DNA from: a virus
Taxonomy: Duplodnaviria > Caudoviricetes
Reading direction: 5' to 3' (one strand)
IMG/VR virus record: IMGVR_UViG_3300044796_000401
Length of the DNA: 64,000 bases
The number at the start of each line of letters is the position of its first letter. Within the stretch, counting starts at the first letter, position 1. The notes below the pieces were generated by a model. It saw only the letters and a list, made by a program, of their open reading frames with translations, was not told where the DNA came from and searched no databases. A program made the translations under genes and the position numbers. Shown here in pieces: positions 1,120-36,175 of the stretch.

Positions 1120-1824
1120 ATGGAGCTATCTAGTAGGCGCATCAAAAATCTGGCGGGGCGAACAATGGGCTGCTGGGCCGTGCTGGATTGTGCGGGCAAC
1201 AACAAGCACGGGCAAGCCATGTGGAACTGCCGATGCGGATGCGGGCTTGAACGGGTCGTGCGGGGGGGTCGGCTTTTGGGGGGTCGGAGCATTTCCCGTG
1301 GCTGCGAGAAAATCAGCAGCCTCACCGGACGCAAATTCGGTAAATTGCTGGTTCTACAGCGGCTTCCCGCTTCATCCGCAAGACAGTCTGTTTGGCTCTG
1401 CCGCTGCGATTGTGGCGAAAAAGGCGCTGTTCATGGCACCAATTTATTGAGAAACCTAGTTAAAAGCTGCGGCTGTTTACGCCGTGAAATCACGCAAGCT
1501 CGAATGACTGGGCCTTCCAATCCCGGCTGGAGGGGAGGCATAACCCCTGAAGTCCAACGGATTAGAAACCATCGAAAAACGAGAAACTGGAAACGATCCG
1601 TATTTAAGCGGGACAACTTTACTTGCCAAAAGTGCAATGTCCGTGGCGGACGATTGGAAGCCGACCGCCACCCAAGGCCGTTTCGAAGCTTGGTCGTGGA
1701 AATCACAGGGTTGTACGGCACAGCCAATCTACACGAAAAGGCGCTGGAATACGCCCCGATGTGGGATATCGACAACGGCCGAACACTATGCTATGAATGC
1801 CACGGAGGAAAATCAAATGCTTAA
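1120..1824 (+). CDS. HNH homing endonuclease with N-terminal Cys-rich DNA-binding repeats
   Basis: WNCRCGCG and KFGKLLV...WLCRCDCG...SCGC repeats. C-terminal CQKC...EADRH...NGRTLCYECH. Confidence 0.8.
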   Translation: MELSSRRIKNLAGRTMGCWAVLDCAGNNKHGQAMWNCRCGCGLERVVRGGRLLGGRSISRGCEKISSLTGRKFGKLLVLQRLPASSARQSVWLCRCDCGEKGAVHGTNLLRNLVKSCGCLRREITQARMTGPSNPGWRGGITPEVQRIRNHRKTRNWKRSVFKRDNFTCQKCNVRGGRLEADRHPRPFRSLVVEITGLYGTANLHEKALEYAPMWDIDNGRTLCYECHGGKSNA

Positions 1825-3397
1825 ATCGGCCGATAAACTACCAAATATGCACAGCACGGAGGTTCGTGGATTGCCGATAGTCATTCAATGGCCTCGCGGC
1901 AGCATCCGGGTGGGCAAGCGCGAAGACGGCACCGAATTCAAGTCAGAGATGAAGTCAGATTACGGTTATGTGCCCGGAACGACGGACGCCGATAATGATG
2001 GCCGTATTGATGTGTACATCGGGCCGGACGAAAAAGCCGAATATGCCTATGCGGTTGAACAACTCAAGGATGACGGCTCGTTCGACGAATACAAAGTCAT
2101 GTTGAATTTCTCCTCTTTGGAAGACGCCGAGGAAATATACGCCGTCCATGCGGGGGAGGACCGCCTCGGGGAGATTCAGGAAATCCCGTTCGACGAGTTC
2201 GCCGAACAGGTTCAGGCCCACCAAAAAACACGGACACCGGATCGCCAAGAAAAACTGGAAGAAAAGACCGCCGGGGAGCACGCCCTGATCGAGGCTTACG
2301 TAAAAAATTATGCCCATGAAATTGACTTCTATGAAGAGGTCGCCCATCTTGCACAAGACAAGCTCGACTCCGCCTTGCAGGACGGGGGCATCAAGGCGGT
2401 CGTGTCATCCCGTGCAAAACGCCCCAGCCGCCTAGAAAAGAAGCTCCTCAAGCGCGAGTCGGAGAAAGGCTACAAGACCTTCCGCAATATTACCGACGAC
2501 ATCGTGGACCTCGCGGGATGCCGCGTGGCGCTCTATATGCCCAAAGACCGCGAAGAGGTGGGGGCGATCATCCAAGAACTGTTCACCGAGGTCCGCCCGA
2601 CCAAACACTTTCCCGAGGATAGGGGGCCGGGAGACTCCCTCGGCTATGTCGCCGACCACTATTTGGTGAAGCTCAAGCCCGAAGCCCTGCGGAAGAAAGA
2701 ATTCCGGTATGCCGACACGCAGGTCGAGATACAAGTGGCGAGCGTGCTGATGGCCGCTTGGGCTGAAGTTTGTCACGACCTCATCTACAAGCCGGAGAAG
2801 GGCAAGCTGACTCCCGCGGAAATGAGCCTGCTCAAGGACCTGAACGACATCGTGCAAATGGGCGAGCAGCAGCTTGAGAAGCTCCAGAACGCCATCGAGC
2901 ACCGCACGTCGGAAGACCTGAGGTTCGACATCGTGGCGACGCTGGAGAAGCTCGCCAAGATCGGCCGCGGCGACGTGGAAGAGTTCAGGTTGCAGGCGGG
3001 CAAGATCGCAGCCGGATTTAACCCCAAGGACATCTGGCGCTACGGCGGCTGGCTCCTTTCCAATACGAATGTCGTGCCTTCGGTGGGGAACGAGAAGACG
3101 GCTTTGGATAACGGCGCGGCGAAATTCGACCTTGACATGTCCGGGGCGATGGTGATCGAGCGCAAGGGTGGCGACCGCCACGCGGAAGCCCGCCTTATGG
3201 ACTTCATCAAGAAATTCCCCCCGCCCGAAACTCTTCTCCTGAAGTTCAAAAGCGTCGGCGCGGAAGAGGATGCCGCAAAGCTTCTGAAGGACCTCGGCGT
3301 CACTGCTGCGGCTCCGACACAGCCCGCCAAGAGCCAATGGGCATCGTACTTGAAAGCCCGGCTGGCGATGATCAAGTCCGGCAGAAACCCCCAGTAA
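1817..3397 (+). CDS. Inorganic-pyrophosphatase-like domain fused to a RelA/SpoT (small alarmone synthetase) domain
   Basis: Start at ATG 1817 (GGAGG RBS), inside ORF 1637..3397. N-terminal DYGYVPGT..DNDGRIDV..GP...FDEYKVML. Central SRAKRPSRL, DIVDLAGCRV, GYVADHY and EIQVASVLMAAWAEVCHDLIYK. Confidence 0.8.
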   Translation: MLKSADKLPNMHSTEVRGLPIVIQWPRGSIRVGKREDGTEFKSEMKSDYGYVPGTTDADNDGRIDVYIGPDEKAEYAYAVEQLKDDGSFDEYKVMLNFSSLEDAEEIYAVHAGEDRLGEIQEIPFDEFAEQVQAHQKTRTPDRQEKLEEKTAGEHALIEAYVKNYAHEIDFYEEVAHLAQDKLDSALQDGGIKAVVSSRAKRPSRLEKKLLKRESEKGYKTFRNITDDIVDLAGCRVALYMPKDREEVGAIIQELFTEVRPTKHFPEDRGPGDSLGYVADHYLVKLKPEALRKKEFRYADTQVEIQVASVLMAAWAEVCHDLIYKPEKGKLTPAEMSLLKDLNDIVQMGEQQLEKLQNAIEHRTSEDLRFDIVATLEKLAKIGRGDVEEFRLQAGKIAAGFNPKDIWRYGGWLLSNTNVVPSVGNEKTALDNGAAKFDLDMSGAMVIERKGGDRHAEARLMDFIKKFPPPETLLLKFKSVGAEEDAAKLLKDLGVTAAAPTQPAKSQWASYLKARLAMIKSGRNPQ

Positions 3398-3460: not shown

Positions 3461-6439
3461 GTGGAATCATCATTGCTCAAATCCGCCATCAGTGTCGCAC
3501 CCGAGAACGGAAAAATCGCCAAGACCACGGCCAAGCATGCCAGCACGCAAATCAACCTCCCGGAGGAACTGGCCGAGAAGCTACGGGAAGCCGTGCGGGA
3601 GGTCATCCCGGAGTCCGACCTCATGGCTGACGGCTACGAGGAAAATTTGCACGTGACGACCAAATACGGGGTTAAAGAGTCCGAAGACGACCTCGTCAAA
3701 GCGGTTGCCGGGCAAGCTGCGTTCGTCGTCGAGTTGGGCAAGACGCACGTCTTCGACCCGAGCGAGTCCAGCGACGGCGCGGCCCCGGTAGCGGTCTTGG
3801 TCGATGCTCCCGAGCTTCACGAACTGCATACGGCTATCGACAAGGCCATGGGCGTCAAGGAAGACAGCTTTCCGGACTACTTACCGCACGTTTGTTTGGC
3901 GTACGTCAAGCCCGAGGCCGCGAGCAAGTACGAAGGCTTGGACATCTTCAAAGGCATCGCCTTCGAGGCCGACAGCATCACCATCTCGAAGAAGGACAGG
4001 GTTTGCGTCGCCGTGCCGTTCGGGAAGGCCAAGACGGCGGCGAGCGACAGGGGAAGCTGCGTGACTCTGGCAGCCGATGCGGAGGGATTCCCGCCCGCGG
4101 TGGTCGTCCGCTTTCCGCAGCGCGGCATGCAGTGGCGTCAGGTGCTCAAGATTGTAAAACAAATTGTCGGAGAGGTCGCCGGGAAGCGCGTCCCTTGGAG
4201 AGACATCCGTATCTTCGAAAACCCGTGGGGCGGATACGCCGAACAGCAAGAGAGATTCCCCGAATGGGCGGCCAAGCAGAAACTCGTGATGTACGACATC
4301 ATGCCCGACGGGTCGTTCCAATCGGTCGGGAAGCCCCATGCCCCGCTTGCGATCCAAGGCAGCCACAAGACCCCGCCGCTCTCCGACACCGTGTACGAGA
4401 ACCCGGAAATCGGGCAGGAGACCAATGCCTATGCCGACATCCCGGAGCGCGTGAAGGGCGTCGAAGCCCTTCCGACTCTGGAGGAACTTGCGCCGGAGAT
4501 GTTCGAAAAGAAGGCAGCCGGATTTCCATCCTTGGAAGAAGTGCTCGAATACGGCGGCGGCAGCGTCGAAAGCGTGGTCAACGACCTCGTGGACTGGGAA
4601 CCGCTCCGCAAAAAGGTAAAGAATTTACCTGAAGCCGAGCAGGAAACCGCCCTCAACAAGCTGGGCTTGAAGGAGGTCACCCGGCGTTGGAAACAAGTCA
4701 ATGCGCTCATGCAATCGCACAAATTCCCGCTCACCGTCTACCGCGGCGTTTGCGCGAACAGCGCGAAAGAGGTCGTCACCGATCCCGATTTCGTGTCCAA
4801 GGAAAGCATAACGGGACGTGGGCTGGGGGTCTATTGGGCATACGACGAAGATAGCGCCTACCTGAGCAAGGAGCTTCTCCACAATTGTCCGGCGTGGGGC
4901 AAGAAGGGCATCATCATGTTCCGCGCCGTCATCTCCGATCCCTCCAAGGTGGATTGGCTGCATACGGCTTGGACAAACCTTGCGGCGGAGGACGAGAAAG
5001 AAGTCCATCTGGTCAAGGGCGCTCGAATCCAAGTCACGGGCGTGAAGAAATATGGCGAGACCACATGGCGCAATCCGCCTCCGAGGTTCCGCAGCGTGAC
5101 CGCCGTCTTCGCCGAGGCGCAGAACCAAGTGCAGCACACCGACCACAAGCCGGTCGGCATGTACAAGACCCCCAAGCGCGACCCGTTCCAAGAGGAATGG
5201 GATTTGTTCGCTCCGAAGGACGAGCCCGAGGCGCAGGAGCCGGAGACGAACGCCCCCATGACGCCGGGCGGGGAGATCAAGAGCCTTTTGAACAAGGCTG
5301 CCGCCAAGGCAACCTACGTGACGCTGTGGGATTTGGTGAATATCGCTGGCGGGCCGCTCCGCATCAAGAACCAGTGCAAGACCCCCGAGGAGGCGCTGGC
5401 ATTGCTCAACGACACCCACGCGAAATACCTCAGGAACTTGCGGACGAAATTCATCGGCATGCATGTGGTTCCCGAAGATCCGTCAAGGATCGCCGCTTGG
5501 GTCGAGCAGCTGTATTCCGAAAACAAAAAGACTGCCGCGCCGCTTCACGATGAAGCGAAGCAAAAGACATATTATCATGGCACCGATGAAGAAGCTCGGG
5601 CTCAAGCCATTCTCAAAGAGGGCATCCAGCCCCGCGAAATTATCCTGCCAAACAAAGCCAAGAGCCGGGCGATGCAAGCTCCGGTGCCGGATCGTGTTTA
5701 TCTGACTGACAGCTTTGGTTATGCCGCGATTTACGCCTTGGGCGGTCAAGCGTTCGGAATGGGGCTCAGCGACCGGACGAAAACCAATTATACCGCCGAC
5801 ATGTGGCTCAAGAATCACATCAAGGCGGGAGAATACGGATACATTTTCGAGGTGCGGGGAGCCGACCTCGCCGGGGATGTGGTGCCTGACGAGGATAGCA
5901 TCGGCGAAGCCCTCGCGTGGATGATCGACTACAAAAAGGATACGCGCAGGCTGGAAGAGCTTGAGACCCAGCCCGAACGCTGGAAGGGCGAGAAGGAAGG
6001 CTTGCAGCGCGGCTTGAAGGCCGTCATGGAGCAGCCGATCGCCAAAGCCCCGGAAGACATTCAAAACCGGCTTGCCTGGCTCAAGACTTACCTGACACCG
6101 GCGCAACTGGACCGCATCGACGAAGCGGCCGTGCAGTCGCAGGTCGGCAAAAAGCTCCAGAAGCGGCTGCCGCCCGATGTCGCCGAATGGCTTCTCGACC
6201 ACGGGGCTCACGTTGCGCACCAAGGCCCCGTATTCCCGGATCGCTGCTGGCGCTTCGGCAAGAAAGACGCCCTATATACCACAGACTTGCAAAGCATCCT
6301 GCAAGAAGTCCCCATTCGGAAGATAGCCGCGGCACAGCCAGTCGCCCCCGTGTATTTCTACATAGAAGTGCCGCGCTGGGCTCGGGAACGCTTCTGTCGC
6401 CTTCACCACATTGAAGAGAAGGACAAATACGATGTTTGA
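3461..6439 (+). CDS. Multidomain protein: 2H phosphoesterase (Acb1/T4 gp57B-like) + R-S-E-type ART-like domain + YHGT-type ART-like domain
   Basis: LHVTTKY and DYLPHVCLAY (HxT/HxC). LTVYRG...GVYWAYD...DEKEVHL. YYHGT...ILKEGI...VYLTDSFGYAAIYA. Confidence 0.72.
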   Translation: MESSLLKSAISVAPENGKIAKTTAKHASTQINLPEELAEKLREAVREVIPESDLMADGYEENLHVTTKYGVKESEDDLVKAVAGQAAFVVELGKTHVFDPSESSDGAAPVAVLVDAPELHELHTAIDKAMGVKEDSFPDYLPHVCLAYVKPEAASKYEGLDIFKGIAFEADSITISKKDRVCVAVPFGKAKTAASDRGSCVTLAADAEGFPPAVVVRFPQRGMQWRQVLKIVKQIVGEVAGKRVPWRDIRIFENPWGGYAEQQERFPEWAAKQKLVMYDIMPDGSFQSVGKPHAPLAIQGSHKTPPLSDTVYENPEIGQETNAYADIPERVKGVEALPTLEELAPEMFEKKAAGFPSLEEVLEYGGGSVESVVNDLVDWEPLRKKVKNLPEAEQETALNKLGLKEVTRRWKQVNALMQSHKFPLTVYRGVCANSAKEVVTDPDFVSKESITGRGLGVYWAYDEDSAYLSKELLHNCPAWGKKGIIMFRAVISDPSKVDWLHTAWTNLAAEDEKEVHLVKGARIQVTGVKKYGETTWRNPPPRFRSVTAVFAEAQNQVQHTDHKPVGMYKTPKRDPFQEEWDLFAPKDEPEAQEPETNAPMTPGGEIKSLLNKAAAKATYVTLWDLVNIAGGPLRIKNQCKTPEEALALLNDTHAKYLRNLRTKFIGMHVVPEDPSRIAAWVEQLYSENKKTAAPLHDEAKQKTYYHGTDEEARAQAILKEGIQPREIILPNKAKSRAMQAPVPDRVYLTDSFGYAAIYALGGQAFGMGLSDRTKTNYTADMWLKNHIKAGEYGYIFEVRGADLAGDVVPDEDSIGEALAWMIDYKKDTRRLEELETQPERWKGEKEGLQRGLKAVMEQPIAKAPEDIQNRLAWLKTYLTPAQLDRIDEAAVQSQVGKKLQKRLPPDVAEWLLDHGAHVAHQGPVFPDRCWRFGKKDALYTTDLQSILQEVPIRKIAAAQPVAPVYFYIEVPRWARERFCRLHHIEEKDKYDV

Positions 6440-11499: not shown

Positions 11500-13590
11500 T
11501 TGTCCAAGCTGCTCCAGATGGATTTCCACAAGGGGTTTGTTGCCTTGGACGAATGTGCCGAGGTGCCATGGGCATCCGACCTCGAACGCTGGGACGAACT
11601 GTGCGAGGCGGAAGAGGAAGAGATGGCTCCGGCTTCCCTCACCTCGGAAGAGGCGGAGGAGAAGTACCGCCTCGGCCCGTCGTCCGAGACCCGCATAGCC
11701 GCCGAGAAGCCCAAAGCCGTCCCGATGCCGCAGGAGATCGACGACGACGGCTGGGTGACGCCACAGGGCAGATGGATTCATGTCGGCGTCGCCGAGACGC
11801 ATGCCGACATCGCCGCGGACTTCGGGTTCCGGGGCAAAGACCCGGTGCGGGAAGCCATCGACGCCGGATATGTGCGGGTGGTCGTGTGGCTGGAGAAGGG
11901 AACGGCTTTCCTCCTGTTCCGGAGCGCAGCCGACGCGCTGCGCCGCGCCGGGGAAATCATGCGCCGCTTCCCCGCGGGGATCGGGACTGTCGGCATGGAA
12001 TACGGCCAAGGCAAGTTCCTCGAAATGCCCTTCGAGATAGCCGAGGAAAAATTTCCCGGCGGCAGCCTCATGTCCGTGACGGCGGCGAAGCGTGAAAAAC
12101 CCGCCAGCAAAACAGCCGGGGAGCACATCCTCGGAGGCATGCCCAATCCCCTGACCCTCGTGGACACGCGACCGGACATCATCGAGGACTGGGTCTACTT
12201 GCCGGAGCGGGACCGCAAGGAGATGCTTTCCGAGGCCAAGGAGATCATGGTCGATCCGAACGACCTGAAGACGGACCAGCTTACCGTGGGCAAGGACGAG
12301 GTGGAGGAGCTTGTAAAGAACATCGGCAGCATCGACGAGCCCACGGAGAGCACGGACGAGGAGCATCTCGCCCACCCGCTGGTCCTCGGAACCGATCAGG
12401 GCATGTTCGTGTTCGACGGCAACCACCGCTGCTCCGCCGCCAAGCTCGCTGGCGTGCCGATCAAGGTGCTGTACATAAACTTGCACCCGATGGAAGACCT
12501 CGTGGGGGACGATGATTGGGGCAAGACCGGGGTGAGCAAACTGGCATCCATCGACACAAACACTCGTGTCCTCTACCATGGAACAAATAAGGATGAGGAT
12601 TTCAATGAGGTTAAACCCGACATGTACGGAATCTTGTGGCTTGCTGAAACAGATGCCGCTCAAGACTACACGATCCGCAGCTATCGCGAAGGTGAGCCCC
12701 GTCTGTTTGAGGTTCGATTGAAGTCAAACACCAAGCTGATAGACATCCGCGACCTATCCGATCCCATCGTGCGGGAGTACAAGGAAGTCGAGTTCCCCGA
12801 TACACTGGACGCCGAATACTTGGAGCGTTGGGCGACATGGCGTCGCGTGGAGGGCAGCCCAAAGCTGGTGAAGTTCATGAAGGATCGGGGCGTCGATGGG
12901 GTCATCGTCAATGACCAACTGAAGCGGGGGCGTCCGCACGACAGCGTGGCCCTTTTCAACCGTGACAAGATCGAGTCACAGAAAGTAGTAAAGACCGCCG
13001 ACAGGTACAATCCCGAGGGCTTCTGGGCGGGCGAAGGCGACGCCGCGTCCGGCATCCTCCCTGTATGCCCCGCCACGGGGCGTGTGGGGCTCGCCATGCG
13101 CTCCGGAGCCGTGGACTATCCCCATACGTATTCCACGGTGGGAGGGGCTGTCAAATCGGGAATGTCGCCCCAGCAGAGCGCCAAGGCGGAACTCAAGGAA
13201 GAGACCGGATACGGCGGCGGAATCAATTTGATCCCCGCATACACCTTTGCGTCCGGGGGCGGATTTAAATACCACAACTTCATCGGCGTGGTTGGCAAGG
13301 AGTTCGGGCTGCATCCCCAAAAGGGCGAGAGCGCGAACCTCGCGTTCGAGGACGAGAACGTCGGCATCGACTGGGTGCCGTTCCAAGAGGTGCTGGACGA
13401 CATCAAGGCGAACAGCGGCAAGTACCACCCGGAATTCGCCAAGTTCCTGGCCAACTCCGAGCAGGCCATCAGGCGGGCGCTGCGCGAGGAGCGGCATGGC
13501 GTCTCGAAGAAAGAGGCCTCCGGCGAGAAGCTCATGCCGGGACGGATCGCCGCCATGCTCGCAACCAAGACTGCCACTATTTCTTCTTGA
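11500..13590 (+). CDS. Multidomain protein: unknown N-terminal domain + ParB/Srx-like + ART-like (YHGT) + NUDIX hydrolase
   Basis: HPLVL...VFDGNHRCSAAKLAG. VLYHGT...GILWLA...GVDGVIVND...VALFN. GGAVKSGMSPQQSAKAELKEETG (NUDIX box). Confidence 0.75.
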   Translation: MSKLLQMDFHKGFVALDECAEVPWASDLERWDELCEAEEEEMAPASLTSEEAEEKYRLGPSSETRIAAEKPKAVPMPQEIDDDGWVTPQGRWIHVGVAETHADIAADFGFRGKDPVREAIDAGYVRVVVWLEKGTAFLLFRSAADALRRAGEIMRRFPAGIGTVGMEYGQGKFLEMPFEIAEEKFPGGSLMSVTAAKREKPASKTAGEHILGGMPNPLTLVDTRPDIIEDWVYLPERDRKEMLSEAKEIMVDPNDLKTDQLTVGKDEVEELVKNIGSIDEPTESTDEEHLAHPLVLGTDQGMFVFDGNHRCSAAKLAGVPIKVLYINLHPMEDLVGDDDWGKTGVSKLASIDTNTRVLYHGTNKDEDFNEVKPDMYGILWLAETDAAQDYTIRSYREGEPRLFEVRLKSNTKLIDIRDLSDPIVREYKEVEFPDTLDAEYLERWATWRRVEGSPKLVKFMKDRGVDGVIVNDQLKRGRPHDSVALFNRDKIESQKVVKTADRYNPEGFWAGEGDAASGILPVCPATGRVGLAMRSGAVDYPHTYSTVGGAVKSGMSPQQSAKAELKEETGYGGGINLIPAYTFASGGGFKYHNFIGVVGKEFGLHPQKGESANLAFEDENVGIDWVPFQEVLDDIKANSGKYHPEFAKFLANSEQAIRRALREERHGVSKKEASGEKLMPGRIAAMLATKTATISS

Positions 13591-32932: not shown

Positions 32933-35900
32933 TTATCTGTGGCGGCCGCCCCTGCGGCTCCACGGGCTCCTCGGGGCCGTGCCGCTCGAATATCCCAGAT
33001 TTGTTGTGAGTTTCTTGGTCCTTTCCATGACCTTGAGGGTCGAAAGCGGGACGCCATCGATGTTCGAGAGCGGTGCCGGGGGCCTGGATTGCTGCTGTTG
33101 CATCAGGAGACCGATGCCCTTGGGGTCCATGTGCACGTTGCCTTCCTTGACGAGCCAGTTCTGGGCGAGCAGGGCGCAAAGCATCGCGGCGTCCGCCATG
33201 TCGTCGTGGGCTCCCTTCTCCATCGGCGCTTGGACGCGAATCCTGTACTTGGACGCCACCTCCAGTTCCACCAATTTCAGTTCCTTGATGAACTTCGGCT
33301 CGTACGGGAACGAGCAGAGCTTGTTCTCGATGTAGCCCCTGAGGGCGTACGCCATCTGCGAGTTGATCGCCGGGGTGATGTTCAGCATCTCGAAGTTGAA
33401 GATGCCGTTCAGTTCGAGAAGCTGGGCAAGCTGCTGACCTCCGTGCTGGTCGGTCGCCCCGCGGAAGCAGGGCAGAATCCTGTTGATGGCCTTCATCCAG
33501 ACGAGGATGTCTTCGAGCGGCAGCACCTTGTAATTTTCGTACCTCTTCTCCCCCGGCGCTTGCGGGATGAACGGCCCCGTGAAATGCTCCCCCACCATCA
33601 TGCGGTCGATGTAGTCATAGATCAGCCTGATGCCGCCCCCGCCGCCGTATTCGAGGTGCGCGATCGCGAGCGCGCTGGCGTCGCAGATCATGCCGAGGTC
33701 GAATCCCCAGAAGTAGTTGCGCCCGAGGTGAAGCTGCGGGATGAAGCTCACGACGTTCAGCCGGGTGCTGCCCTCCGTGGGCAGCCCCGTCTCGTCCCAA
33801 TGGCAGTCCACGCAGGACTTGACCGCGGCTTCCGTGACGTACGACTCGGACGATTCGAGGAACTGCCCGCCGAACTCGGCCCTGAACGTCAGGGGATTCT
33901 TTTCATGGTCGGCCCGCAGGGTCTTGGAAAGGACCTTGTTGTTCATCTCGGCGGTCGAGCAGTTCAAGGTGAAAATCGAGGAGGCGGCACCCTTGGACAA
34001 AGCCAGCTTGTGCAATTCGTACATCTTGCCGACCCGCTTCAGGGGCGAGGAGATGCTGAAGATCATCGAGTCCTGGACGCCGAATTGCCCAGGGAGGCGG
34101 GGAGCCAGAATGTTCTTTTCGTAGACCTGCGCCGAGATGTCCTCCTCAAGAACCTCCTCTTCGTTGTCGGGATCGGCTTCCGGAGGGATGGCTTCCGTCG
34201 TGCCATCGGCATAAATGCGTTCCGTGTGGTGGAAGTCCACGGTCGATGGAGTGGCTGCGGCGTACATGTCCTCCGATGTGCTGCCTTTTTCGGCGCGGAA
34301 ATGGGCGAATTCGTCGAGGGCGAGGAACACGGACGAAGGTCCGCGGACGGCGTTCGTGGAGCAGGGCAGCGACCACACCGTGAGGGTCGGCGTTATGTCC
34401 CGCTTGTGGCGGTCGGCTTCGCAGACAAAGGTCAGTTTCTTGCTGTTGTTGTCCCGGACGAAGGGCTCGAAGAAACTGCAATGGTTCACGCGCTCGCTGA
34501 GCTTCTTGAACAGGCGGTCAGCGCCGGTGTCATCTTGAGCCAAGTAGGTGATGTCTATGGGGGAGCCGGGGACCAAGCCGAAGAATTCCTGCGGCGAGCG
34601 GATGTTCAGAAGGAGGTACAGCTTGAAACAGGTGATGGCGGCGACAAGTTCCGAATTGTGCGTGATATTGAAGTTTTTGCCAAACAAAAACAAACCGTCC
34701 GGGTCTTCGACCGTCAAACAACGCACCATTCGCCTTCCAGCGGGTTCTATAGACACAACGTACCTGTATTTTTGAGTTTTACGCACAGTCACAGAGAGCA
34801 GATTAAGCTTCCTCTGTAGACGAAAAACAGAAGATTCTCCTGTCCATGTTACCCAATATTGCACTTTGTGCTTGGGGTTACGAGGGGGCACCTCTTTCCA
34901 ATAAGGCTTAAGCCCCAAACTTGCTGCTAAATGATACACTCCCTCCGAAAGATTACGTCTCGTGTTGGTGAATGTCACTAATCCTTTTGAGCATCCCCCA
35001 TCTGTATCTAACAAACCCTGCAATAGCGCCTTTCTTTGAGAAGATGAAGCCCAAAGATAATCATTCGGAATATGTTTGTTTCCAAGAACCCCCATTTTTC
35101 GCAACACAACTTTTAACCCGCGGATAGACCAACGATGTTTTCTTTTAGACTTTTTCCAGCTAAACCCGGCACTTACAAAATATTTAAGAATTTCCAAGGC
35201 GTCAGACTCTTCCGCAGCATAATTTCCTCCAGCGCTTTCTCCATCGCCTAACCAACACCCAAAGCAATACGGGTCAAGGGGAAGGTCTTTATCCGGTAGT
35301 TCAACCGCTCTAGGCAGCGGAATCGCATGATTAGAATAATTGCCGACTTTAAGTGTCTGAAAAATTTCTTGGGTTGTTTTTACAGACCCCATCGGTTGAA
35401 GTTTAGTACATAAACCAACTATTTCAGGGCGTGGCGCATACTCATAACCAGCAGCAACCGCCCTTACCCTGCGTTGTTCTCTGCGTGCTTTACGGTGTTC
35501 TGGTGTGCGATAACACGAGGCCATACGGTCAGCCCTAGTAAACGTCAGCCAGCGATGCTCTGGATGGGCCAACACGGATGTGCCGTCGTCGAATGTGACA
35601 CAATATACTTCTGAAACAAACGGCTCGTGGGCGTAAACAACCTTGGTAGGCTTACCGCTGGGAGATAAAACCATGTCCCCGTCCTTGATGTCACCGTTCC
35701 GAACAAACCCATTGGGGGTGGGGATAGGCTCATCCAAAGCGAGGGCCTTCCCCCCACGGCGGCCAGCAAAGACGACCGCTTCGTTGTACCCGCCGTAAGT
35801 CTTGCCGAGGTTCGGGATGTCCCGCCAATCGTCGATGTTGCAGCGGTTTTCGTTGAACGCTATGTGGAGGTACTCTTCCTCCGACACCGTGCGGATGAGC

Positions 35901-36175
35901 TTCTCGCGGAACACGTCCCACATCTGCACCTGGCCCCAGAGCGGGATGCGGTCGGCCCACTCCGGACGCCAATCCAGCGGCACGCCGAAGATGCACTTGG
36001 CGATGACGCGCTGCACGGGGCGCAGGACTATGCCGGTGCCCTGCGGGCCTTCGATGAACTCGACCGCGTTCATCAACTTGCGGTTGATGTCCGTTAGCCC
36101 GGCGCTGATCGCCTTGCCGAAGGCGGAATTCCTCTGCGCTTCCTTGTTGAATATCGAGACCCTGCGTGGCGGCAT
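32933..36175 (-). CDS. terL: Terminase large subunit split by an intein
   Basis: Walker A spliced as VFAGRRGGK|S; Walker B FLALDEFAHF; ISSP coupling motif; RNaseH-like WGFDLG...DAS and GAHDDMADA. Confidence 0.92.
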   Translation of the reverse strand: MPPRRVSIFNKEAQRNSAFGKAISAGLTDINRKLMNAVEFIEGPQGTGIVLRPVQRVIAKCIFGVPLDWRPEWADRIPLWGQVQMWDVFREKLIRTVSEEEYLHIAFNENRCNIDDWRDIPNLGKTYGGYNEAVVFAGRRGGKALALDEPIPTPNGFVRNGDIKDGDMVLSPSGKPTKVVYAHEPFVSEVYCVTFDDGTSVLAHPEHRWLTFTRADRMASCYRTPEHRKARREQRRVRAVAAGYEYAPRPEIVGLCTKLQPMGSVKTTQEIFQTLKVGNYSNHAIPLPRAVELPDKDLPLDPYCFGCWLGDGESAGGNYAAEESDALEILKYFVSAGFSWKKSKRKHRWSIRGLKVVLRKMGVLGNKHIPNDYLWASSSQRKALLQGLLDTDGGCSKGLVTFTNTRRNLSEGVYHLAASLGLKPYWKEVPPRNPKHKVQYWVTWTGESSVFRLQRKLNLLSVTVRKTQKYRYVVSIEPAGRRMVRCLTVEDPDGLFLFGKNFNITHNSELVAAITCFKLYLLLNIRSPQEFFGLVPGSPIDITYLAQDDTGADRLFKKLSERVNHCSFFEPFVRDNNSKKLTFVCEADRHKRDITPTLTVWSLPCSTNAVRGPSSVFLALDEFAHFRAEKGSTSEDMYAAATPSTVDFHHTERIYADGTTEAIPPEADPDNEEEVLEEDISAQVYEKNILAPRLPGQFGVQDSMIFSISSPLKRVGKMYELHKLALSKGAASSIFTLNCSTAEMNNKVLSKTLRADHEKNPLTFRAEFGGQFLESSESYVTEAAVKSCVDCHWDETGLPTEGSTRLNVVSFIPQLHLGRNYFWGFDLGMICDASALAIAHLEYGGGGGIRLIYDYIDRMMVGEHFTGPFIPQAPGEKRYENYKVLPLEDILVWMKAINRILPCFRGATDQHGGQQLAQLLELNGIFNFEMLNITPAINSQMAYALRGYIENKLCSFPYEPKFIKELKLVELEVASKYRIRVQAPMEKGAHDDMADAAMLCALLAQNWLVKEGNVHMDPKGIGLLMQQQQSRPPAPLSNIDGVPLSTLKVMERTKKLTTNLGYSSGTAPRSPWSRRGGRHR
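34655..35746 (-). mobile_element. Ala-start (class 3-type) intein with LAGLIDADG endonuclease (364 aa)
   Basis: Starts ALALDEPIPTPNG. W-C-T triplet in AHPEHRW, VRCLTV and ITHN|S. Helices FGCWLGDG and LLQGLLDTDG. Confidence 0.92.

What the first reader, a model, noticed from the sequence alone, without database searches (positions are those of the whole stretch)
1817..3397. Pyrophosphatase-like domain fused to a RelA/SpoT synthetase in a phage
Seen: a YGY-GT..D.D..DV family-I-PPase-like domain, then a SAS domain with EIQVAS in place of the usual EIQxRT, then an unknown domain of about 90 aa. Established: SAS enzymes transfer pyrophosphate from ATP to GDP/GTP, ADP/ATP or tRNA CCA ends and release AMP, not PPi. 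The PPase therefore cannot be a simple product-removal partner. Inference: alarmone-based host reprogramming, or a synthetase with a built-in counter-activity.
Basis: partly seen in the sequence, partly recalled or inferred. Interest (0 to 1): 0.62.

Follow-up and report, generated by a model that had tools for sequence, protein, structure and literature searches.

The report
Phage pyrophosphatase-alarmone synthetase fusion enzyme
A giant uncultured phage encodes one protein that permanently joins a pyrophosphatase-like enzyme to an intact but unusual RelA/SpoT-type pyrophosphate-transferring enzyme, at the head of its cluster of host-attack genes; the pairing is real and conserved in about 90 related phage proteins, but what it modifies is unknown.

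Summary
Window 1817-3397 (+) is one 526-aa gene with three parts: a phage-type family-I-pyrophosphatase-like domain (Pfam InPase, E 1.7e-30), a RelA/SpoT synthetase domain (best fold match RelQ, Z 18.3), and a roughly 105-aa unassigned module ending in a conserved basic helix.

The synthetase looks active. Every catalytic position is invariant across 105 relatives, and EIQVAS, in place of EIQxRT, is an invariant signature of the subfamily, not decay.

The pairing is obligate. I found 81 tandem and 3 nested forms, the latter with the synthetase inserted inside the InPase domain. On a quick tree they form one clade. Its sister clade is a RelA/SpoT+HEPN-motif protein found at variable accessory sites of P2-like prophages.

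The gene always sits between a divergent exonuclease or T5-A1-like gene and a giant 2H/ART/GNAT polyvalent protein, on contigs up to 463 kb.

My best reading is an early-acting, probably injected, two-enzyme effector that makes a hyperphosphorylated nucleotide. The InPase would act on a P-O-P bond in the same pathway. Substrate, delivery and coupling are untested.

In this copy two of the three signature aspartates of the PPase motif are out of register.

This scan has already reported the same fusion in other phage genomes. Both domain types were predicted in phage polyvalent proteins in 2017. I class it as a new variant of a known kind.

The parts
1804..1809 (+). Shine-Dalgarno GGAGGA, 7 nt before the ATG
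1817..3397 (+). CDS of 526 aa: InPase, RelA/SpoT, unassigned module, basic tail helix
1850..2212 (+). InPase domain (phage-type family I PPase-like OB fold), residues 12-132
   Evidence: Pfam PF18823 E 1.7e-30. AF2 pLDDT above 90. VIA-align to family I PPases 6mt1 Z 6.3, 5cuu 6.1, 5cux 6.0, 8qpt 6.0.
1979..2014 (+). Loop equivalent to the PPase D-x-D-x-x-D metal motif. This copy reads T-T-D-A-D-N-D-G-R-I-D-V, with N and G where the first two Asp of E. coli PPase fall.
2264..2281 (+). Linker motif K-T-A-G-E-H (residues 150-155), identical to a linker in the 11500-13590 protein; candidate protease site, not conserved in the family
2285..2941 (+). RelA/SpoT SYNTH domain with its flanking helices, residues 157-375
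   Evidence: Pfam. AF2 pLDDT above 90. RelQ 5dec Z 18.3, RelP 6ewz Z 17.4. Foldseek TM 0.75-0.81 normalised by target length.
2726..2743 (+). EIQVAS (syn4) motif, residues 304-309, invariant in the subfamily
2999..3316 (+). Unassigned mobile module of about 105 aa, residues 395-500
   Evidence: AF2 pLDDT 34-66.
3335..3382 (+). Conserved basic amphipathic C-terminal helix (type A tail, Y-L-K-A-x-L-A)
1120..1824 (+). Context: upstream ORF with a Cys/His-rich tail whose stop overlaps the start codon; no Pfam or NCBIfam hit; homologous ORF at the same place in L010
1..921 (-). Context: divergent exonuclease gene (436 aa, cut by the window edge), syntenic in relatives
3461..6439 (+). Context: next gene, a 992-aa protein with a 2H/Acb1-like domain; it corresponds to the giant polyvalent proteins that follow the fusion gene in relatives

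Best explanation
The gene encodes an early-acting phage effector made of two enzymes that are kept together.

Shown or strongly supported by sequence and fold:
(1) The RelA/SpoT domain is a complete RelQ/RelP-like synthetase fold. It keeps the Mg-binding Asp, the acceptor-stacking Tyr and the catalytic Glu-x-Gln, so it should still transfer pyrophosphate from ATP.
(2) The N-terminal domain is the phage-type family I pyrophosphatase-like InPase.
(3) In this phage lineage the two are never found apart, and in one branch the synthetase is inserted inside the InPase.
(4) The gene heads a conserved cluster of polyvalent effector genes.

Inferred:
- The protein is delivered with the DNA or made from the first genes expressed.
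- Its acceptor is most likely a free purine nucleotide, giving a (p)ppGpp- or (p)ppApp-like product. I favour this over tRNA because the domain is acidic and resembles RelQ/RelP most closely.
- The InPase acts on a P-O-P bond in the same pathway. It could trim the product or a 5' or 3' polyphosphate, or clear PPi from a follow-on reaction. It does not act on the AMP by-product.
- The net effect is manipulation of host nucleotide signalling or energy charge at the start of infection.
For: Domains: Pfam, AF2, Foldseek and VIA-align.

Active synthetase: R199, K201, K209, R213, D228, D231, G234, R236, Y277, H281, E304, Q306, H320, Y324 and K325 are invariant in 105 sequences. The Asp and Tyr equivalents are essential in FaRel2 (10.1101/2021.04.30.441581).

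Obligate pairing: 81 tandem and 3 nested forms against 34 solo forms. On a quick ML tree the InPase-linked sequences form one clade (aLRT 99), with the nested branch as sister to the tandem branch (97 each). The two 'solo' rows inside that clade come from short contigs of 1.3-2 kb.

Nested forms: Pfam matches the InPase profile in two stretches that flank the RelA/SpoT domain.

InPase catalytic residues: the family consensus keeps D-x-[DE]-x-x-D in 68 of 80 members, plus Y49, E81, D90/E91 and K93. It aligns to E. coli PPase residues 53-74.

Context: the order exonuclease or T5-A1-like gene (reverse strand), then the fusion gene, then a protein of about 1,400-3,000 aa with 2H plus ART-PolyVal, SprT or GNAT domains recurs on 7 viral contigs. 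A further 4 contigs, and this window, keep the divergent exonuclease.

Virion link: in cultured phages the InPase domain lies in portal, minor-head or DarB-like proteins. PMC5512222 predicts it is packaged.

Nucleotide rather than tRNA: the synthetase domain has a median pI of 5.8. Z-scores are highest for RelQ/RelP, lower for CapRel (12.6) and FaRel (7.7).
Against: No activity, substrate, packaging or expression timing has been measured for any member.

In this window's copy the first two Asp of the PPase motif are replaced in register by N60 and G62. Asp residues flank them at 57, 59 and 61, but this InPase may be weakened.

Seventeen relatives carry inserts of 134-266 aa between the two domains. 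This phage has a K-T-A|G-E-H linker that could be a protease site. Both points fit a picture of independent modules.

The Arg and Thr of EIQxRT are missing, and I could not establish what those residues do.

The charge and Z-score argument for a nucleotide acceptor is weak. Kurata et al. found no sequence signature that identifies tRNA-targeting toxSAS.

The terminase gene is 30 kb away, so nothing in this window ties the gene to a head module.
Confidence: 0.45

Rival explanations
1. The modules are independent and are fused only so that they are delivered together, which is the usual polyvalent-protein logic. The InPase clears PPi to speed early transcription or replication. The RelA/SpoT domain separately makes an alarmone. 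The two may be cut apart by a protease.
For: Iyer et al. propose exactly this alternative for InPase. Linkers vary and 17 relatives carry inserts of 134-266 aa. The K-T-A-G-E-H linker recurs in a neighbouring effector, and an (M/L)-L-K-S-A peptide lies at the N-terminus of this gene and the next. Unchecked notes from this scan report the same motif beside the head protease. InPase is also fused to many unrelated partners in other phages.
Against: Within this clade the pair is never broken across deep divergence, down to about 43% identity. In the nested forms the synthetase interrupts the InPase fold, so the two cannot be separated by cleavage without destroying the InPase.
Confidence: 0.2
2. 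The protein shuts off translation in the manner of a toxSAS. The synthetase pyrophosphorylates the 3'-CCA end of host tRNA, and the InPase trims the 3'-diphosphate to a monophosphate so that alarmone hydrolases cannot reverse the modification.
For: The stacking Tyr and the ATP-binding motifs are conserved, and no sequence signature separates tRNA-using from nucleotide-using enzymes. CapRel is a clear structural relative at Z 12.6. The nearest sequence relatives lie at variable accessory sites of P2-like prophages and carry a HEPN-type motif, which suggests a toxic role.
Against: The synthetase domain is acidic, with net charge about -5. Kurata et al. argue that the negatively charged surface of housekeeping SAS precludes tRNA binding. 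Blocking tRNA charging would also hurt the phage. The trimming step is pure inference.
Confidence: 0.15
3. The protein is an anti-defence enzyme. It modifies or destroys a host immune signalling nucleotide, working alongside the neighbouring 2H/Acb1-like and NUDIX domains.
For: The next gene has an Acb1/2H-like domain and a NUDIX domain lies nearby. Iyer et al. suggest that InPase targets nucleotides made in response to infection. The sister clade sits at variable accessory sites of prophages.
Against: No candidate signal has been identified. PADLOC gives only weak hits to one candidate family, PDC-S33, at E 7e-7 or weaker.
Confidence: 0.12
4. The chemistry has changed. With the Arg and Thr of EIQxRT lost, the domain transfers a nucleotidyl group as other Pol-beta-fold enzymes do. 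That reaction releases PPi, which the InPase then removes as an ordinary product-clearing partner.
For: The invariant A-S replaces R-T. The sister clade pairs this domain with a HEPN-type motif, which recalls MNT-HEPN pairs where the transferase AMPylates the HEPN partner (my own knowledge). A PPase beside a PPi-releasing enzyme is the commonest reason for such a fusion.
Against: All other RSH-specific motifs are retained, including the basic residues of syn1, and the fold is closest to true pyrophosphokinases.
Confidence: 0.05
5. One or both domains are catalytically dead and serve only as structural or packaging modules.
For: This copy's PPase motif is out of register. InPase domains sit on portal C-termini that are disordered in the Pa193 virion map.
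Against: Strong purifying conservation of the acidic, basic and Tyr catalytic positions in both domains across the family.
Confidence: 0.03

Closest known systems
Phage-type polyvalent proteins (Iyer, Burroughs, Anand, de Souza, Aravind 2017, PMC5512222)
   Same: InPase and RelA/SpoT are both in their catalogue of phage-only polyvalent domains. The neighbours are the same kinds of domain: 2H, ART-PolyVal, SprT-like zincin, GNAT, ParB and NUDIX. They likewise predict action at or just after DNA entry.
   Different: This is a small separate gene of 374-745 aa upstream of the giant protein, not part of it. Only one relative longer than 921 aa was found. The pair is fixed and appears to have a single origin instead of being shuffled. 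One branch has a nested architecture. The text of that paper does not mention this pairing.
Housekeeping small alarmone synthetases RelQ/RelP (5dec, 6ewz, 6fgk)
   Same: They are the best fold matches (Z 16.8-18.3 over about 180-194 residues), including both long flanking helices. The catalytic syn motifs are conserved and the domain is acidic.
   Different: Sequence similarity is only marginal: profile E 2e-4 and NCBIfam YjbM 18.8 bits against a cut-off of 320. EIQVAS replaces EIQIRT. The protein is fused to InPase and encoded by a phage.
Apk2: MuF-adenosine 3'-pyrophosphokinase polymorphic toxins of temperate phages (PMC12226406)
   Same: A RelA/SpoT-type enzyme sits behind an N-terminal module that is associated with phage heads. 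Apk2 produces (p)ppApp and is toxic.
   Different: The N-terminal module here is InPase, not MuF. No IapK or Aph1 immunity genes were seen. The syn3 and syn4 signatures differ: Apk2 has GxN and YH, whereas this family has A-[TD]-H and V-A. These are jumbo phage contigs, not prophages.
toxSAS (CapRel, FaRel2, PhRel, FaRel; Tas1)
   Same: RSH synthetase domains used as weapons in phage-host conflict.
   Different: There is no adjacent antitoxin or SAH. Fold similarity is lower: CapRel Z 12.6, Tas1 10.2, FaRel 7.7. No toxSAS with a PPase fusion turned up in the papers I read.
Uncharacterised RelA/SpoT+HEPN-motif proteins of about 435 aa in P2-like prophages (e.g. P0100, P0092)
   Same: They are the nearest sequence relatives (47% identity over the synthetase domain) and share the EIQVAS signature.
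   Different: They lack InPase. Their C-terminus carries an R-N-x-L-V-H motif in 31 of 34 members. They lie next to the integrase and CI genes, after Ogr, or between the tail-fibre assembly and sheath genes.
Family I inorganic pyrophosphatase (E. coli Ppa)
   Same: The same OB-type fold (Z about 6 over 115-134 residues). The Y-G-Y and D-x-D-x-x-D-V segments align.
   Different: The domain has about 135 residues. It lacks a beta-hairpin according to PMC5512222. It has no PF00719 hit. The substrate is unknown.

Membership tests
RSH superfamily, SYNTH domain (PF04607) | Pfam model matched above the gathering score | tested here: met
   38.6 bits against 27, residues 198-327
RSH superfamily, SYNTH domain (PF04607) | Catalytic residues: Mg-binding Asp in D-x-x-D-L-x-G-x-R, acceptor-stacking Tyr in G-Y-x-x-x-H, and Glu-x-Gln of syn4 | tested here: met
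   D231, R236, Y277, H281, E304 and Q306 are invariant in 105 sequences.
RSH superfamily, SYNTH domain (PF04607) | Canonical syn4 E-I-Q-x-R-T | tested here: not met
   E-I-Q-V-A-S. A308 and S309 are invariant in the whole subfamily.
RSH superfamily, SYNTH domain (PF04607) | SAS fold | tested here: met
   5dec Z 18.3, rmsd 2.7, 182 residues aligned. Foldseek E 2.6e-8.
RelQ/YjbM equivalog (NCBIfam NF053588) | Score above the curated cut-off | tested here: not met
   18.8 bits against 320
toxSAS toxin-antitoxin modules | Conserved adjacent antitoxin or SAH gene | tested here: not met
   The neighbours are an unassigned Cys/His-rich ORF, an exonuclease and polyvalent genes. No HD_4 match was found in the 103.5-kb fragment, which is only 32% complete.
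toxSAS toxin-antitoxin modules | Toxicity on expression, neutralised by a cognate partner | not testable with these tools
   Needs expression in a laboratory strain
Apk2 / MuF polymorphic toxins | N-terminal MuF domain | tested here: not met
   No MuF hit. The N-terminus is InPase.
Phage-type polyvalent proteins (PMC5512222) | Two or more catalogued effector domains in one polypeptide of a phage | tested here: met
   InPase plus RelA/SpoT
Phage-type polyvalent proteins (PMC5512222) | Linkage to head or packaging genes, or evidence of virion packaging | tested here: inconclusive
   The gene is adjacent to polyvalent genes, but the terminase is 30 kb away. InPase sits in portal and minor-head proteins of cultured phages. 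There are no proteomics data.
Phage-type polyvalent proteins (PMC5512222) | Associated zincin-like processing peptidase | tested here: inconclusive
   A small gene of about 130 aa follows the fusion gene in L002, L003, L008 and L011. The L003 copy is SprT-like, and L012 has a SprT-like domain inside its giant protein. None was seen next to the gene in this window.
InPase (PF18823) | Pfam model matched above the gathering score | tested here: met
   106.1 bits against 26.8
Family I inorganic pyrophosphatase (PF00719) | Pfam model matched | tested here: not met
   No hit for this protein. One relative, P0014, scores 20.9 bits against 23.5.
Family I inorganic pyrophosphatase (PF00719) | Fold | tested here: inconclusive
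   Four PPases at Z 6.0-6.3 covering residues 2-152. This is a middling Z from a search with the whole model. The domain was not searched on its own.
Family I inorganic pyrophosphatase (PF00719) | D-x-D-x-x-D metal-binding signature in register | tested here: not met
   68 of 80 family members have D-x-[DE]-x-x-D[VI]. This copy has N60 and G62 at the first two positions, with Asp at 57, 59, 61 and 65.

The most novel reading that the evidence does not exclude
The two domains form a single two-step machine that has not been described. The RelA/SpoT domain pyrophosphorylates a 3'-OH, and the fused, in one branch physically nested, PPase-like domain then cuts the new P-O-P bond. The product would be a new nucleotide such as a 3'-monophosphorylated polyphosphate, or an RNA 3' end blocked in a way that host alarmone hydrolases cannot reverse. 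On this reading the EIQVAS RSH subfamily uses an acceptor that no characterised SAS uses.
Probability: 0.15. Interest if true: 0.8.

Novelty: new variant of a known kind. Interest (0 to 1): 0.5.

Why it matters
RSH enzymes are central to bacterial stress signalling and are now recognised as toxins and immune effectors. Their use by lytic phages, however, is known mostly from prediction.

This family gives a concrete and testable case. It has a distinct RSH subfamily marked by the EIQVAS signature. It is locked to a pyrophosphatase-like partner in dozens of giant phages. Its sister group lies at variable accessory sites of prophages.

If the two activities are coupled, the result would be either a new nucleotide product or a new way to make pyrophosphorylation irreversible. 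If they are not coupled, this remains the clearest example of a fixed 'starter' gene for the polyvalent effector clusters of jumbo phages. It would also give the so far uncharacterised InPase domain an experimental handle.

Tried and rejected
I took genomic context from IMG/VR loci instead.
- AF2 on the nested variant P0076 modelled the C-terminal InPase half poorly (pLDDT 44-62, helices in place of strands). The likely cause is that the tandem sequences misalign there. The nested fold therefore rests on the two-stretch Pfam match alone.
- AF2 coordinates and PAE are not available, so I could not measure the geometry between the two domains. A pTM of 0.50 with domain pLDDT above 90 suggests the relative orientation is not fixed in the tandem form.
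- The ESM Atlas gave no usable hit for the C-terminal part.
- Pfam found nothing useful in the proteins that share the C-terminal module.
- A global hhalign against E. coli Ppa failed. The local mode and hmmsearch both aligned the signature segment.
- phmmer of the InPase domain against PDB sequences found only the Pa193 portal. That part of the portal is not resolved in the map.
- PADLOC gave only weak PDC-S33 hits.
- The promoter and terminator scan did not exceed the shuffled controls.
- No cultured phage carries this synthetase clade. The only hit was a weak one in an 8-kb Vibrio element. Megablast of the region against phages found nothing.
- The [LIMV]-L-K-x-A motif is not enriched overall in the 103.5-kb fragment: 2 hits against 2.4 expected. 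Only the position of the hits is notable, since both lie in the first residues of two adjacent genes.
- I considered filing the protein as a toxSAS, an Apk2 or a RelQ. I rejected all three because defining features were not met (see Membership tests).
Full report
**Observation.**
Window 1817-3397 (+) is a single gene. The frame is open from 1637, but the start is ATG 1817. GGAGGA lies 7 nt upstream of it. About 70 homologues begin 4-6 residues before the same A-D-K-L-P-N-M-H-S peptide.

Pfam finds InPase (PF18823) at residues 12-132 with E 1.7e-30. It finds RelA_SpoT (PF04607) at residues 198-327 with E 1.4e-9. Both are above their gathering scores. The record is an IMG/VR viral fragment of 103.5 kb, rated 32% complete by CheckV. 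It carries a large terminase, homing endonucleases and methylases.

**Anatomy.**
An AlphaFold2 model built on 105 aligned relatives gives pLDDT above 90 for residues 10-135 and 155-365. Confidence is low after about residue 370.

- Synthetase domain. Its best structural matches are the housekeeping small alarmone synthetases: RelQ 5dec (Z 18.3, 182 residues), RelP 6ewz (17.4) and 6fgk (16.8). Next come the Rel N-terminal domain (14.3), CapRel (12.6), an exported SAS (11.7), Tas1 (10.2) and FaRel (7.7).
- InPase domain. Residues 17-145 align to four family I pyrophosphatases at Z 6.0-6.3. A family profile aligns its Y-G-Y...D-x-E-x-x-D-V segment to E. coli Ppa N-Y-G-Y...D-G-D-P-V-D-V (hmmsearch E 2e-4 and hhalign E 1.4e-3, both one-to-one comparisons).
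- Third part. It is a module of about 105 aa (residues 395-500). Ten other proteins share it in different positions and none has a Pfam family.
- C-terminus. The protein ends in a basic amphipathic helix. Across the family this tail comes in two alternative conserved versions, even though the region before it varies.

**A conserved family.**
A search of 5.8 billion proteins with residues 150-526 returned 241 proteins. At least 84 clusters among the best 120 carry both Pfam domains. Several sit on contigs of 240-463 kb. I classified 118 proteins with domain HMMs.
- 81 are tandem InPase-RelA/SpoT. Sixty have linkers of 9-39 aa and 17 carry inserts of 134-266 aa.
- 3 are nested.
- 34 lack InPase.

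In the nested proteins (P0070, P0076, P0082, the fragment P0090, and the L012 gene) Pfam matches the InPase profile in two stretches. About profile positions 10-55 lie before the synthetase and 57-134 after it. The synthetase therefore sits in the loop just ahead of the metal-binding motif.

A quick maximum-likelihood tree of the synthetase domain was rooted at the midpoint for drawing only; the careful search did not finish. It splits a solo clade (32 rows, aLRT 99) from an InPase-linked clade (86 rows, 99). Inside the latter the nested (97) and tandem (97) forms are sisters. The two 'solo' rows inside the tandem clade come from contigs of 1.3-2 kb, and one is identical in its domain to a full fusion. 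The simplest reading is one old fusion that has never since been lost. Only one relative longer than 921 aa was found.

**Catalytic state.**
These synthetase positions are invariant across 105 sequences: R199, K201, K209, R213, D228, D231, G234, R236, Y277, H281, E304, Q306, H320, D321, Y324 and K325. The equivalents of D231 (Mg) and Y277 (acceptor stacking) are essential in FaRel2.

A308 and S309 are also invariant, and the solo relatives share them. EIQVAS is therefore a subfamily signature under selection. I could not determine what the missing Arg and Thr do.

In the InPase domain the family consensus keeps Y49, D60-x-E62-x-x-D65 (68 of 80 members), E81, D90/E91 and K93. This window's copy belongs to a minority variant, T-D-A-D-N-D-G-R-I-D-V. 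N and G occupy the first two signature positions and Asp residues flank them. Its closest relative, P0004, has the canonical loop. The hydrolase may be shifted in register or weakened in this copy.

**Context.**
The next gene (3461-6439) has a 2H/Acb1-like domain. Further on, 11500-13590 has ParB and NUDIX domains. Homing-endonuclease and methylase genes lie between them.

Upstream on the other strand lies a 436-aa exonuclease. It is 45-52% identical to the gene in the same position in L001, L002 and L004-L008. L003 has a different exonuclease there, and L009, L012 and L020 have a T5-A1-like 'DNA transfer protein' (phrog_1745, E 8e-171).

In L001, L003, L009-L012 and L020 the fusion gene is followed on the same strand by a protein of 1,431-2,982 aa. 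The four I scanned with Pfam carry a 2H domain plus ART-PolyVal, SprT-like or GNAT domains. A gene of about 130 aa lies in between in L002, L003, L008 and L011, and the L003 copy is SprT-like.

This is the polyvalent-protein theme of Iyer et al. 2017. They list InPase and RelA/SpoT as phage-only polyvalent domains. They predict that InPase is packaged and acts either on a nucleotide-like substrate or on PPi.

In 376 cultured-phage records the only matches to this protein are InPase domains, found in portal, minor-head, structural or DarB-like proteins. The best PDB sequence match is the unresolved C-terminus of the Pa193 portal. No cultured phage carries this synthetase clade.

**Mechanism.**
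The evidence supports three things: an active pyrophosphokinase; a hydrolase domain whose catalytic residues are conserved in the family; and a physical pairing that selection has kept, including a nested form that cannot be cut apart.

I therefore favour a coupled two-enzyme effector that acts at the start of infection, with confidence 0.45. I lean towards a free purine nucleotide as acceptor. The domain is acidic (median pI 5.8) and is closest in fold to RelQ/RelP. Both arguments are weak.

The rivals, each with tests in its field, are independent co-delivered modules, toxSAS-like tRNA modification, an anti-defence enzyme, changed chemistry that releases PPi, and dead domains. The variable inserts and the phage-specific K-T-A|G-E-H linker favour the independent-modules rival. 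That linker is shared with the 11500-13590 protein, and an (M/L)-L-K-S-A N-terminus is shared with the next gene. Earlier notes from this scan say the same motif flanks the head protease elsewhere in this phage. I checked only the local occurrences.

**Comparison and novelty.**
The protein works like a phage-delivered RSH effector. The best-studied analogue is the MuF-Apk2 toxin (PMC12226406). It fails the defining features of Apk2 (no MuF domain), of toxSAS modules (no partner gene) and of RelQ (far below the cut-off). It fits the broad definition of a small polyvalent protein.

The library has one paper that mentions InPase. In the papers I read, none describes this pairing, the EIQVAS subfamily or the nested form.

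This scan has already reported the same fusion in other phage genomes, and one note describes an InPase directly followed by a Tas1-like synthetase in a prophage giant protein. I did not check those notes. I class the finding as a new variant of a known kind, with interest 0.5.

Noticed in passing
L013-L027 (IMG/VR prophage-like contigs); proteins P0091-P0122: The nearest relatives of the synthetase domain are proteins of about 435 aa without InPase. They share EIQVAS, and 31 of 34 carry an R-N-x-L-V-H (HEPN-type Rx4H) motif near the C-terminus. They lie at variable accessory sites of P2-like prophages: next to the integrase and CI repressor, after Ogr/Delta, or between the tail-fibre assembly and sheath genes. 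They look like an undescribed single-gene RelA/SpoT+HEPN defence candidate. PADLOC gives only weak PDC-S33 hits.
   Followed up: partly
window 1817-1831 and 3461-3490; also 2264-2281 and the 11500-13590 protein: This gene and the next both start with (M/L)-L-K-S-A. These are the only two [LIMV]-L-K-x-A hits in 29,543 aa of ORFs. The linker K-T-A-G-E-H before the synthetase recurs before the ParB domain of the 11500-13590 protein. This fits a phage-specific protease or sorting signal.
   Followed up: partly
window 1120-1824 (+); L010:9454-10008: An ORF with a Cys/His-rich tail, and no Pfam or NCBIfam hit, overlaps the start codon of the fusion gene. A homologous ORF (31-40% identity) sits in the same place directly upstream of the fusion gene in L010.
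   Followed up: partly
L002:11472, L003:11353-11751, L008:11534, L011:2608: A gene of about 130 aa lies between the fusion gene and the giant polyvalent gene in several relatives. The L003 copy is a SprT-like zincin by Pfam. It is a candidate processing peptidase. No counterpart was seen at this position in the window.
   Followed up: partly
family-wide C-termini: Two alternative conserved C-terminal tails close an otherwise variable C-terminal region. Type A reads H-V-S-Y-L-K-A-K-L-A-L-W-K-A-H and is the type in this window. Type B reads E-I-I-A-L-A-Q-Q-L-K-x-E-A. They may be docking peptides. Their function is unknown.
   Followed up: no
window 32933-36175 (-): The large terminase ORF is 1,080 aa long, and its PHROG terminase matches cover only residues 133-517. 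The rest of this unusually long ORF is unassigned.
   Followed up: no
P0126 (1,422 aa, ENA contig of 29.7 kb): This is the only long relative found. It has InPase and RelA/SpoT followed by about 1,100 more residues that include a DUF4116 match.
   Followed up: no
L009:8113-9795, L012, L020: In one branch of relatives the divergent upstream gene is a T5-A1-like 'DNA transfer protein' (phrog_1745, E 8e-171). This hints that the effector cluster lies in an early or pre-early region.
   Followed up: no
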